64,000 bases of DNA, from assembly GCF_003018115.1 (NCBI RefSeq), contig NZ_CP027457.1, one strand, 5' to 3'. Of this stretch, positions 3,001 to 6,000 are shown piece after piece; within the stretch, counting starts at the first letter, position 1, and each line of letters starts with the position of its first letter. Made by a program: the position numbers. This stretch comes from Escherichia coli. GTDB taxonomy: Bacteria > Pseudomonadota > Gammaproteobacteria > Enterobacterales > Enterobacteriaceae.

Positions 3001-6000
3001 GGTTTTTGCCGCGTTGTTTGGCGCAGCGGAAGCGTGGTTGAAGTCCCAAGGTGCAAGTAAGATCAGCGGTCCTTTCAGCCTGAATATCAATCAGGAAAGC
3101 GGATTACTGATTGAAGGTTTTGACACACCACCCTGTGCGATGATGCCACACGGCAAACCGTGGTATGCCGCGCATATTGAACAACTGGGTTATCACAAAG
3201 GCATTGATTTACTGGCGTGGTGGATGCAGCGAACCGATCTCACTTTCTCTCCGGCGCTAAAAAAACTGATGGATCAGGTGCGCAAAAAGGTGACCATTCG
3301 CTGCATCAATCGCCAGCGGTTTGCCGAAGAGATGCAGATCCTGCGTGAGATTTTCAACTCTGGCTGGCAACACAACTGGGGATTTGTGCCGTTTACCGAA
3401 CATGAATTCGCGACCATGGGCGATCAACTTAAATATCTGGTGCCGGACGATATGATCTACATCGCTGAGATTGATTCTGCACCCTGCGCGTTTATTGTCG
3501 GCTTGCCGAACATCAACGAGGCGATTGCCGATCTGAACGGATCGCTCTTTCCCTTCGGCTGGGCAAAATTGCTGTGGCGTTTGAAAGTCAGCGGTGTGCG
3601 AACTGCGCGAGTACCGCTGATGGGCGTGCGCGACGAGTATCAGTTCAGCCGCATCGGCCCGGTGATTGCGCTGTTATTGATTGAAGCCTTACGCGATCCG
3701 TTTGCCCGCCGGAAGATCGATGCGCTGGAGATGTCATGGATCCTCGAAACCAATACAGGCATGAATAACATGCTGGAACGCATTGGGGCGGAGCCGTACA
3801 AGCGTTACCGATTGTATGAAAAGCAGATTTAATACCAGCTAACTCAGGTTCATCTCCAGCGGCACCGCCGAGCGAATCAAATGGTGGCCTTCCAGCTCGA
3901 TATCGTGGAGATTCTTTTTCACGGTCCGCACATGATCGCGTGCTGCGCGCTGGGCGACGTGCGGCAGCCGCTGCAACACCGCGTTGTAGATCCGCGCATG
4001 CTGGCGATCGATCTGCTTTTTTTGCTGTGGTCGATGGTAGAGATTATTTACGCTGGCAAACACTGAATTAAACATCAGGTCGGTCAATGATTGCAGCGTA
4101 AACACCAGCACCTGATTGTGAGAAGCCTGACAAATGGCGAGATGGAAAGCGTGATCCAACTGCGCATGTTCGATCAGCGAAATCTCTTTGTTGTTCTCAC
4201 TGGCGGCGAGCATTTTTTCATAACAGCGGGTTATCACAACAAAATCAGCCTGCGTTCCCAGCGTTGCCGCCAGCCTTGCCGATTCGCCCTCCAGCAATGC
4301 GCGAACGTCGAGCAGATCGTACAGCGTTCGCGGCTGCGTGCTGAACAGATGAATTAGCGGGCTGGTGTCCTGCACCCGATTAAGCCGTGCGACACGAGAA
4401 TCGCGACCCTGCGCCGTTTCAATAATCCCGCGCCCGCGCAGCACGGTCAGCCCTTCACGCAGTGCGGAGCGTGAGAAGCCGAGCTTTTCACACAGTCGAC
4501 GTTCCGAGGGAAGCGGCTGACCGACCTTCAGTACGCCGTCGATAATTAACCGTTCGATACTCTCTGCAACCACTTCGCAAATAGGGCGACGTTCATCTTT
4601 CATTCCCGGACCTCGTGCACAGGTAGGACCAATTTTTCTGTACTTAACTCGCAAAACACGCACATCACGTAAGTGATTATGTTACATCAATTTAACATTG
4701 AGTTAACCAAGGCAAGGTCACAGAGCTGGAAAAAAAATGGTCTGACCGGTAGCTAAAGAGATAGACGAAAACGAAAAGCCCGCTTAATAACTGTTCACAG
4801 AAGCAGCGCGCAAAAATCAGCTGCCACACAACACAACTAAGCGAAGCCTACTCATGAGCATCTTGTACGAAGAGCGTCTTGATGGCGCTTTACCCGATGT
4901 CGACCGCACATCGGTACTGATGGCACTGCGTGAGCATGTCCCTGGACTGGAGATCCTGCATACCGATGAGGAGATCATTCCTTACGAGTGTGACGGGTTG
5001 AGCGCGTATCGCACGCGTCCATTACTGGTTGTTCTGCCTAAGCAAATGGAACAGGTGACAGCGATTCTGGCTGTCTGCCATCGCCTGCGTGTACCGGTGG
5101 TGACCCGTGGTGCAGGCACCGGGCTTTCTGGTGGCGCGCTGCCGCTGGAAAAAGGTGTGTTGTTGGTGATGGCGCGCTTTAAAGAGATCCTCGACATTAA
5201 CCCCGTTGGTCGCCGCGCGCGCGTGCAGCCGGGCGTGCGTAACTTGGCGATCTCCCAGGCCGTTGCACCGCATAATCTCTACTACGCACCGGACCCTTCC
5301 TCACAAATCGCCTGTTCCATTGGCGGCAACGTGGCAGAAAATGCCGGCGGCGTCCACTGCCTGAAATATGGTCTGACCGTACATAACCTGCTGAAAATTG
5401 AAGTGCAAACGCTGGACGGCGAGGCACTGACGCTGGGATCGGATGCGCTGGATTCGCCTGGTTTTGACCTGCTGGCGTTGTTCACCGGATCGGAAGGTAT
5501 GCTCGGCGTGACCACCGAAGTGACGGTAAAACTGCTGCCGAAGCCGCCCGTGGCGCGGGTTCTGTTAGCAAGCTTTGACTCGGTAGAAAAAGCCGGACTT
5601 GCGGTTGGTGACATCATCGCCAATGGCATTATCCCCGGCGGGCTGGAGATGATGGATAACCTGTCGATCCGCGCGGCGGAAGATTTTATTCATGCCGGTT
5701 ATCCCGTCGACGCCAAAGCGATTTTGTTATGCGAGCTGGACGGCGTGGAGTCTGACGTACAGGAAGACTGCGAGCGGGTTAACGACATCTTGTTGAAAGC
5801 GGGCGCGACTGACGTCCGTCTGGCACAGGACGAAGCAGAGCGCGTACGTTTCTGGGCCGGTCGCAAAAATGCGTTCCCGGCGGTAGGACGTATCTCCCCG
5901 GATTACTACTGCATGGATGGCACCATCCCGCGTCGCGCCCTGCCTGGCGTACTGGAAGGCATTGCCCGTTTATCGCAGCAATATGATTTACGTGTTGCCA

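What the first reader, a model, noticed from the sequence alone, without database searches (positions are those of the whole stretch)
4604..4853. Candidate GlcC operator in the glcC-glcD divergent region
A short palindrome GGTCTGACC (4739-4747) preceded by an A-run lies about 110 bp upstream of glcD. It resembles the half-site pattern of FadR-subfamily GntR operators, so it is a candidate GlcC site, but it is only a 9-bp match.
Basis: inference. Interest (0 to 1): 0.2.

Follow-up and report, generated by a model that had tools for sequence, protein, structure and literature searches.

The report
Known GlcC operator upstream of glcD
The short palindrome is real and is one of two conserved binding boxes for the glycolate regulator GlcC between glcC and glcD in E. 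coli, but it has already been published as a predicted GlcC site and as a site bound by the related regulators PdhR and LldR, so it is ordinary.

Summary
The window holds the E. coli glc locus. GGTCTGACC lies at 4739-4747, preceded by an A8 run, with its centre 111 bp upstream of the glcD ATG. As a bare 9-mer it is not significant: an identical copy sits inside glcD.

It is the core of a 17-bp FadR-type box, AAATGGTCTGACCGGTA (4735-4751). A partner box, CACAGGTAGGACCAATT, lies at 4618-4634.

In 52 orthologous glcC-glcD spacers (Escherichia, Raoultella, Pseudomonas, Stutzerimonas, Azotobacter), every spacer has exactly two GGTNNNACC boxes, a 35-fold enrichment over the flanks. The consensus is AACTGGTnnnACCAGTT. 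The glcD-proximal box sits a fixed 14 bp from a conserved -35-like T(A/G)GACG.

The literature already covers this DNA:
- Suvorova et al. 2015 list both boxes as predicted GlcC sites.
- Göhler et al. 2011 shifted this exact sequence with PdhR.
- Anzai et al. 2023 list both as LldR boxes.

I found no direct GlcC footprint in the papers I could read.

The finding is already known and of low interest.

The parts
4735..4751 (.). GlcC box 2 (glcD-proximal), AAATGGTCTGACCGGTA; core palindrome GGTCTGACC at 4739-4747, centre 4743. This is -56 from the glcD TSS and -74 from the glcC TSS.
   Evidence: sequence. (published predicted GlcC site). (PdhR gel-shift probe contains it). (LldR box, 12/14). (conserved in 52 orthologous spacers). 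(the 41-mer is identical in 4462 of 4544 E. coli genomes and the core is invariant in Escherichia and Raoultella).
4730..4737 (+). A8 run on the distal flank of box 2. An A-rich flank (gaaA.AAACTGG) is conserved on this side only.
   Evidence: One E. coli strain (F11) has A7 instead. Function not established.
4618..4634 (.). GlcC box 1 (glcC-proximal), CACAGGTAGGACCAATT; core GGTAGGACC at 4622-4630, centre 4626. This is +44 from the glcC TSS; the core ends 18 bp from the glcC ATG.
   Evidence: (published predicted GlcC site). (PdhR box, 11/14, genomic SELEX). (LldR box, 11/14). (conserved partner box). (top matrix score in the window).
4762..4767 (+). -35-like hexamer TAGACG of glcDp, exactly 14 bp after the ACC of box 2.
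   Evidence: T[A/G]GAC[G/T] at 14 bp in 50 of 52 spacers and at 13 bp in 2. It lies at -37..-32 of the derived TSS.
4785..4790 (+). -10-like TAATAA of glcDp, with a 17-bp spacer after the -35-like hexamer.
   Evidence: conserved CTAA..AT block. Consistent with the TSS derived. Hexamer assignment is inferred.
4799..4799 (+). glcD transcription start, derived.
   Evidence: Park et al. 2013 place the ArcA site (window 4678-4709) at -121..-90 of the mapped glcDEFGBA TSS.
4678..4709 (-). ArcA-P site: three direct repeats 11 bp apart, TGGTTAACTCAATGTTAAATTGATGTAACATA. It lies between the two GlcC boxes and over glcCp (-40..-9).
   Evidence: published ChIP-seq site and sequence. (exact match at 4678-4709). 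(part of it was reported as an inverted repeat).
4669..4681 (-). glcC promoter core: -10 CATAAT (4681-4676 on the minus strand) and the derived TSS at about 4669.
   Evidence: ArcA site at -40..-9 of the mapped glcC TSS. Sequence. Hexamer assignment is inferred.
3839..4603 (-). glcC, a GntR/FadR-subfamily regulator.
4854..6353 (+). glcD, first gene of glcDEFGBA.

Best explanation
The palindrome is the core of the glcD-proximal operator of GlcC, the glycolate-responsive GntR/FadR-subfamily regulator encoded next door. A GlcC dimer would place its two winged helix-turn-helix domains on the GGT and ACC half-sites of AAATGGTCTGACCGGTA. That box is centred at -56 of the glcDEFGBA promoter and 14 bp upstream of a weak -35. 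From there glycolate-bound GlcC would recruit or stabilise RNA polymerase, acting as an upstream activating site. A second box, centred at +44 of the divergent glcC transcript, would give autorepression, possibly through a GlcC-GlcC loop enclosing the glcC promoter and the ArcA-P site. The paralogues PdhR and LldR recognise nearly the same box and cross-bind here.

Shown: the sequence, its conservation, its geometry, and PdhR/LldR binding (from the literature).
Inferred: GlcC occupancy, the mode of activation, and looping.
For: - Regulator identity: GlcC has GntR + FCD domains and matches the NCBIfam GlcC equivalog. Its recognition helix SRSALREGL is invariant in 53 of 54 orthologues.
- Published prediction: both boxes are listed as predicted GlcC sites. 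GlcC motifs have GT-N3-AC spacing, and a GlcC regulog of 83 sites in 23 genomes exists.
- Conservation: all 52 orthologous glcC-glcD spacers carry exactly two GGTNNNACC boxes, 35-fold enriched, with consensus AACTGGTnnnACCAGTT.
- Geometry: the gap from box 2 to the -35-like hexamer is fixed at 14 bp while the intervening sequence varies.
- Box spacing: 96, 106-109, 117 or 119 bp in different lineages, which is 9.1, 10.1-10.4, 11.1 and 11.3 helical turns. The boxes therefore stay on roughly the same face of the DNA.
- Transcription starts: derived from Park et al. 2013, they place box 2 at -56 of glcDp and box 1 at +44 of glcCp.
- Regulation: the literature says GlcC activates glcDEFGBA through an upstream activating site and represses glcC.
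- Population: the box is identical in 98% of E. coli genomes that carry the locus.
Against: - No direct GlcC footprint, gel shift or ChIP on this site was found in the papers I could read. Pellicer et al. 1999, which characterised the promoter, could not be read.
- The only direct protein-DNA data for this exact sequence are for PdhR. For the whole spacer they are for LldR and PdhR.
- The E. coli box matches the GlcC consensus at only 11 of 14 positions. Its matrix score (7.7) is within the range of the best hits in shuffled 64-kb sequence (mean 5.7, maximum 10.5).
- A centre at -56 is not a canonical class I (-61.5) or class II (-41.5) position.
- I could not locate the IHF site that the literature requires.
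Confidence: 0.85

Rival explanations
1. The box is functionally a PdhR and/or LldR operator rather than a GlcC site. Its resemblance to a GlcC motif would then only reflect the shared family consensus.
For: PdhR shifts a 43-bp probe centred on this palindrome as well as it shifts its own operator, and ChIP-qPCR enrichment is 1.8-fold. LldR genomic SELEX gives a peak on the spacer (13.3 versus 62.9 at lldP), LldR shifts the region in gels, and glcD mRNA follows LldR dosage. The box matches the LldR consensus at 12 of 14 positions, slightly better than the 11 of 14 against the GlcC consensus.
Against: The two-box architecture travels with glcC next to glcD across Enterobacterales and Pseudomonadales, which carry different repertoires of PdhR/LldR targets. 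Outside E. coli the flanks are CTGGT/ACCAG, not the TTGGT/ACCAA of PdhR. PdhR genomic SELEX assigns its box to the other site, and its signal there (795) is far below the 9,889 at pdhR. The fixed distance to the -35 fits the operon's dedicated activator. Cross-binding is therefore probably additional, not exclusive.
Confidence: 0.07
2. Box 2 serves mainly glcC autoregulation, being at -74 of glcCp and paired with box 1 at +44 in a repression loop. glcD activation would come from elsewhere.
For: The boxes flank glcCp and keep near-integral helical spacing. The E. coli LldR operator pair at lldP has a similar arrangement: Aguilera et al. are cited for two LldR-binding sequences, while the positions and the looping model come from my own recollection.
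Against: The strictly fixed 14-bp gap between box 2 and the glcD -35-like element in 50 of 52 species points to a constraint from glcDp. The box-to-box distance, by contrast, varies from 96 to 119 bp. No other conserved box exists in the spacer.
Confidence: 0.06
3. The palindrome is a chance match with no function.
For: The 9-mer recurs inside glcD, and its count in the window is not significant. The matrix score is modest.
Against: It is conserved in position and core sequence in 52 species while neighbouring bases vary. PdhR binds it in vitro.
Confidence: 0.02

Closest known systems
Predicted GlcC sites of the RegPrecise GlcC regulog (Suvorova, Korostelev & Gelfand 2015, PLoS One, S1 File; Leyn et al. 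2016, Microb Genom)
   Same: Identical. The entries GlcC_ECO AAATGGTCTGACCGGTA and CACAGGTAGGACCAATT for b2980 and b2979-2975 are the two boxes found here.
   Different: Nothing in the sequence differs. Those entries are comparative-genomic predictions without a GlcC footprint.
PdhR box, AATTGGTnnnACCAATT (E. coli PdhR)
   Same: Same GGT-N3-ACC core. PdhR shifts this very sequence in vitro. GlcC and PdhR share the SRxxLRE recognition helix.
   Different: Only 10 of 14 consensus positions match at box 2, by my count. Genomic SELEX assigns the PdhR box to box 1 (11/14), with low intensity. PdhR is a pyruvate-released repressor, not the operon's inducer-dependent activator.
LldR operators O1/O2 of lldPRD and the LldR box AAnTGGTCnGACCAnTT
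   Same: A two-box arrangement about 110-130 bp apart with one box downstream of a transcription start, a dual activator/repressor logic, and 12/14 and 11/14 matches at the glc boxes.
   Different: The cognate effector is lactate. LldR binding at glc is secondary (intensity 13.3 versus 62.9 at lldP). The positions of the lldP operators come from my recollection of Aguilera et al. 2008 and were not checked here.
FadR operator (TGGTNNNACCA type), FadR-DNA crystal structures
   Same: Palindromic half-sites contacted by a winged-HTH dimer. The general FadR-subfamily consensus is TKGT/ACMA with a 3-nt centre.
   Different: FadR is only distantly related to GlcC (NCBIfam 37 bits) and has a different effector (acyl-CoA).
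GlcR operator(s) of Paracoccus denitrificans
   Same: A glycolate-responsive GntR/FadR-type regulator acting on a glcDEF spacer with several operator sites.
   Different: GlcR is a repressor, 32% identical to GlcC, forming a separate clade. Its operator spans more than 30 bp.

Membership tests
FadR-subfamily GntR operator | Inverted repeat with a conserved GT-N3-AC core (TKGT...ACMA) | tested here: met
   TGGT-CTG-ACCG at 4738-4748. Definition.
FadR-subfamily GntR operator | Lies in the regulatory region next to a gene for a GntR + FCD regulator | tested here: met
   glcC carries PF00392 + PF07729. The box is in the 250-bp divergent spacer.
GlcC operator (GlcC regulog) | Conserved in orthologous glcC-glcD spacers | tested here: met
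   52 of 52 spacers have two boxes with consensus AACTGGTnnnACCAGTT.
GlcC operator (GlcC regulog) | Listed in the curated or predicted GlcC site set | tested here: met
   Suvorova et al. 2015, S1 File, GlcC_ECO entries.
GlcC operator (GlcC regulog) | Direct, effector-modulated binding of GlcC protein | not testable with these tools
   No GlcC gel shift, footprint or ChIP was found in the held papers. Pellicer et al. 1999 is not held.
GlcC operator (GlcC regulog) | Position compatible with activation of glcDp | tested here: inconclusive
   Centre at -56 of the derived TSS and a fixed 14 bp to the -35. This is upstream of and adjacent to the promoter, but it is not a canonical class I or class II position.
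PdhR box | Match to AATTGGTnnnACCAATT and binding by PdhR | tested here: met
   10 of 14 positions match by my count. A published gel shift used a probe containing the site. Genomic SELEX attributes the peak to box 1.
LldR box | Match to AAnTGGTCnGACCAnTT within an LldR SELEX peak | tested here: met
   12/14, peak intensity 13.3, and a gel shift of the region. Binding to this box individually has not been shown.

The most novel reading that the evidence does not exclude
The two in-phase boxes, kept at about 9, 10 or 11 helical turns apart in different lineages, could form a GlcC-bridged loop enclosing glcCp and the ArcA-P site. Glycolate would switch that loop from autorepression to activation of glcDp. 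In E. coli the boxes may have drifted towards PdhR/LldR-like flanks, so that one operator pair integrates glycolate, pyruvate and lactate signals. Neither the loop nor three-way competition at these boxes has been shown experimentally, as far as the papers I could read go.
Probability: 0.25. Interest if true: 0.3.

Novelty: already known. Interest (0 to 1): 0.1.

Why it matters
It matters little beyond confirmation. The site belongs to a well-studied E. coli operon, and this exact sequence is already in the literature as a predicted GlcC site, a PdhR gel-shift probe and an LldR box. The residual value is practical. The fixed 14-bp distance to the -35 and the phased two-box layout are useful design rules for GlcC-based glycolate biosensors. 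A direct GlcC footprint also appears to be missing from the papers I could read.

Tried and rejected
- **Chance test on the bare 9-mer.** Not significant, and a second identical copy lies inside glcD. That copy is rejected as a site: it is codons Gly-Leu-Thr and scores -13.1.
- **Generic sigma-70 scan of 4450-5000.** It found no promoter in the spacer on either strand. The promoters were instead placed from conservation and from published ArcA-site offsets.
- **IHF consensus WATCAANNNNTTR, up to one mismatch.** No hit in the E. coli spacer or in most orthologues. The published IHF dependence could not be mapped.
- **Pellicer et al. 1999 (JBC 274:1745).**
- **Five literature searches for a GlcC gel shift, ChIP-exo, SELEX or biosensor operator map.** None gave direct GlcC-DNA data.
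- **Wing hypothesis.** I tested whether a difference in the GlcC wing (GRDSRV versus GRGSFV) explains the degenerate flanks in E. coli. Rejected: many Pseudomonas species with consensus flanks share the E. coli wing.
- **Polymorphism control.** The 5'-UTR 41-mer is not a fair control, because the window carries a minority allele there.
- **Matrix hit inside sslE (14066-14086, score 10.3).** Treated as probable chance, since shuffles reach 10.5.

Full report
**Observation**

The window carries the E. coli glc locus. glcC is on the minus strand (ATG at 4603). glcD is on the plus strand (ATG at 4854). A 250-bp divergent spacer (4604-4853) lies between them.

GGTCTGACC is at 4739-4747 as stated. 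It is a 4+1+4 inverted repeat, preceded by an A8 run (4730-4737), with its centre 111 bp upstream of the glcD ATG.

The 9-mer alone is not beyond chance. GGTCNGACC occurs twice in the window against 0.47 expected, and 8 of 100 shuffles reach two. The other copy (5370-5378) is codons Gly-Leu-Thr of glcD.

A second box of the same type, GGTAGGACC followed by AATT, lies at 4622-4634, 18 bp from the glcC start codon.

**What the literature already says about this DNA**

- Göhler et al. 2011 (PMC3265435) used the 43-mer AGAGCTGGAAAAAAAATGGTCTGACCGGTAGCTAAAGAGATAG as their "GlcDop" gel-shift probe. PdhR bound it as well as it bound its own operator, with 1.8-fold ChIP-qPCR enrichment.
- Anzai et al. 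2023 (PMC10272880) found an LldR genomic-SELEX peak on the spacer (13.3 versus 62.9 at lldP). They list AAaTGGTCtGACCggTa (12/14) and cAcaGGTagGACCAaTT (11/14) as its two LldR boxes. glcD mRNA rises with LldR overexpression and falls in an lldR mutant.
- The PdhR genomic-SELEX study (PMC7660256) attributes its weak peak (795 versus 9,889 at pdhR) to the other box, AATTGGTcctACCtgTg.
- Suvorova, Korostelev and Gelfand 2015 (PMC4494728, S1 File) list exactly these two 17-mers as predicted GlcC sites of b2980 and b2979-2975. They sit alongside GlcC sites from Marinobacter, Azotobacter, Burkholderia and Azoarcus.
- Leyn et al. 2016 describe a GlcC regulog of 83 sites in 23 genomes.

I found no direct GlcC footprint, gel shift or ChIP in the papers I could read. 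Pellicer et al. 1999, which characterised the promoter, was not available. Secondary sources say GlcC activates glcDEFGBA through an upstream activating site. They also report that expression needs IHF and is repressed by ArcA-P.

**Independent test by phylogenetic footprinting**

A scan of one genome per species with the GlcC protein returned 55 loci. Of these, 52 have glcD divergent from glcC across a spacer of 245-270 bp. They comprise four Escherichia lineages, Raoultella, about 45 Pseudomonas and Stutzerimonas, and Azotobacter.

- Every spacer contains exactly two GGTNNNACC boxes: 104 boxes in 13.3 kb (7.8 per kb) against 62 in 279 kb of flanking sequence (0.22 per kb), a 35-fold enrichment.
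- The consensus is AACTGGTnnnACCAGTT.
- In 50 of 52 spacers the glcD-proximal box is followed by exactly 14 bp of variable sequence and then T(A/G)GAC(G/T). In the other two the gap is 13 bp. About 17 bp further on lies a CTAA..AT block, giving a weak -35/-10 pair.
- The box-to-box distance is 106-109 bp in Pseudomonas and Stutzerimonas, 117 in Escherichia, 119 in Raoultella and 96 in Azotobacter. These are 10.1-10.4, 11.1, 11.3 and 9.1 turns of 10.5 bp. Spacing therefore changes in steps of about one helical turn, and the boxes stay on roughly the same face.
The second-ranked hit is inside the sslE coding region. Its score (10.3) is within the shuffle maximum of 10.5.
- Within E. coli, the 41-mer around the box is identical in 4462 of the 4544 complete genomes that carry the locus.
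- In an Escherichia/Raoultella alignment both cores and the -35-like hexamer are invariant. The one variant strain I inspected differs only in A-run length.

**Geometry relative to transcription starts**

Park et al. 2013 (PMC3798270, supplement) give a three-repeat ArcA-P site, TGGTTAACTCAATGTTAAATTGATGTAACATA. They place it at -121 to -90 of the mapped glcDEFGBA start and at -40 to -9 of the mapped glcC start. That sequence is at window 4678-4709 on the minus strand.

| Feature | Window position | Relative to glcDp | Relative to glcCp |
|---|---|---|---|
| glcD TSS (derived) | 4799 | +1 | |
| glcC TSS (derived) | about 4669 | | +1 |
| Box 2 centre | 4743 | -56 | -74 |
| Box 2 17-mer | 4735-4751 | -64 to -48 | |
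| Box 1 centre | 4626 | -173 | +44 |
| -35-like TAGACG | 4762-4767 | -37 to -32 | |
| -10-like TAATAA | 4785-4790 | -14 to -9 | |
| CATAAT (minus strand) | 4681-4676 | | -12 to -7 |

The same coordinate mapping puts the published PdhR box position (3126271) exactly on the centre of box 1, which checks it.

**The regulator**

The glcC product has GntR and FCD domains. It matches the NCBIfam GlcC equivalog at 510 bits against a cut-off of 301, with LldR and PdhR as the next families. No GlcC structure is solved; the closest solved relative by full-length sequence is PdhR. GlcC and PdhR share the SRxxLRE recognition helix. SRSALREGL is invariant in 53 of 54 GlcC orthologues. This fits the invariant GGT/ACC core and explains cross-recognition by the paralogues.

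**Mechanism**

Most likely (confidence 0.85 that this is a GlcC operator): a GlcC dimer occupies the box at -56. With glycolate bound, it activates the weak glcD promoter from a fixed position just upstream of the -35. The partner box at +44 of glcC mediates autorepression, possibly by looping with box 2 around glcCp and the ArcA-P site. PdhR and LldR bind the same boxes more weakly, which links pyruvate and lactate status to the operon.

- Shown here or in the cited papers: the sequence, conservation, spacing, start-site geometry, and PdhR/LldR binding.
- Inferred: GlcC occupancy, the contact with RNA polymerase, and looping.

**Rivals**

- An exclusive PdhR/LldR site (0.07). This is disfavoured because the two-box layout travels with glcC across orders, and because the non-E. 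coli flanks are CTGGT/ACCAG rather than PdhR's TTGGT/ACCAA.
- A site serving mainly glcC autoregulation (0.06). This is disfavoured by the strictly fixed distance to the glcD -35, while the inter-box distance varies.
- Chance (0.02). This is refuted by conservation.

**Unresolved**

I could not locate the IHF site. The A-rich flank, conserved only on the distal side of box 2, is unexplained.

**Verdict**

The finding is already known, so interest is low.

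Noticed in passing
window 4618-4634: A second FadR-type box, CACAGGTAGGACCAATT, lies 18 bp from the glcC ATG. 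It is the best match in the whole window to the GlcC matrix (13.3 bits). It has been published as a predicted GlcC site, a PdhR box and an LldR box.
   Followed up: yes
window 4678-4709 (minus strand): Three direct repeats 11 bp apart (GTTAACTCAAT GTTAAATTGAT GTAACATAATC) lie between the two boxes. The 32-mer within them is identical to the ArcA-P site published by Park et al. 2013, and it overlaps the glcC promoter. The inverted repeat reported is part of it.
   Followed up: yes
window 5370-5378: An identical GGTCTGACC lies inside glcD as in-frame codons Gly-Leu-Thr. Its flanks do not fit the motif (matrix score -13.1), so it is probably coincidence.
   Followed up: yes
window 14066-14086: GTAACTGGTGCTACCTGTAAT, about 320 bp into the large ORF 13745-18322 (which I take to be sslE/yghJ), is the second-best GlcC-matrix hit (10.3 bits). 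That is within the range of the shuffled-sequence maximum (10.5).
   Followed up: partly
window 4664-4677: A small inverted repeat, ATCAC-GTAA-GTGAT, straddles the derived glcC transcription start. It is conserved in Escherichia but not in Raoultella. Function unknown.
   Followed up: no
window 4730-4737 and orthologous loci (e.g. L037, L042 upstream of box 2): An A-rich flank is conserved only on the distal side of box 2 (gaaA.AAACTGG). Many Pseudomonas and Stutzerimonas spacers carry a repeated GAAAG...GAAAG there. E. coli strain F11 has A7 instead of A8. It could be a bend, an UP-like element or an extended contact; this was not tested.
   Followed up: partly
E. coli genome collection: Only 4544 of 5426 complete E. 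coli genomes have the glcC-glcD spacer, so the locus is absent or diverged in about 16% of them. One copy lies on a plasmid.
   Followed up: no
L055 (NZ_VLXZ01000430.1, 233 bp): A 233-bp, low-coverage contig in an Alkalicoccobacillus porphyridii assembly encodes the GlcC C-terminus at 100% identity to E. coli. This is most likely E. coli contamination of that assembly.
   Followed up: no
L046 (Pseudomonas sp. Q2-TVG4-2, same contig as L042): A second glcC-like gene (65% identity) with no adjacent glcD, apparently a paralogue with a different target.
   Followed up: no
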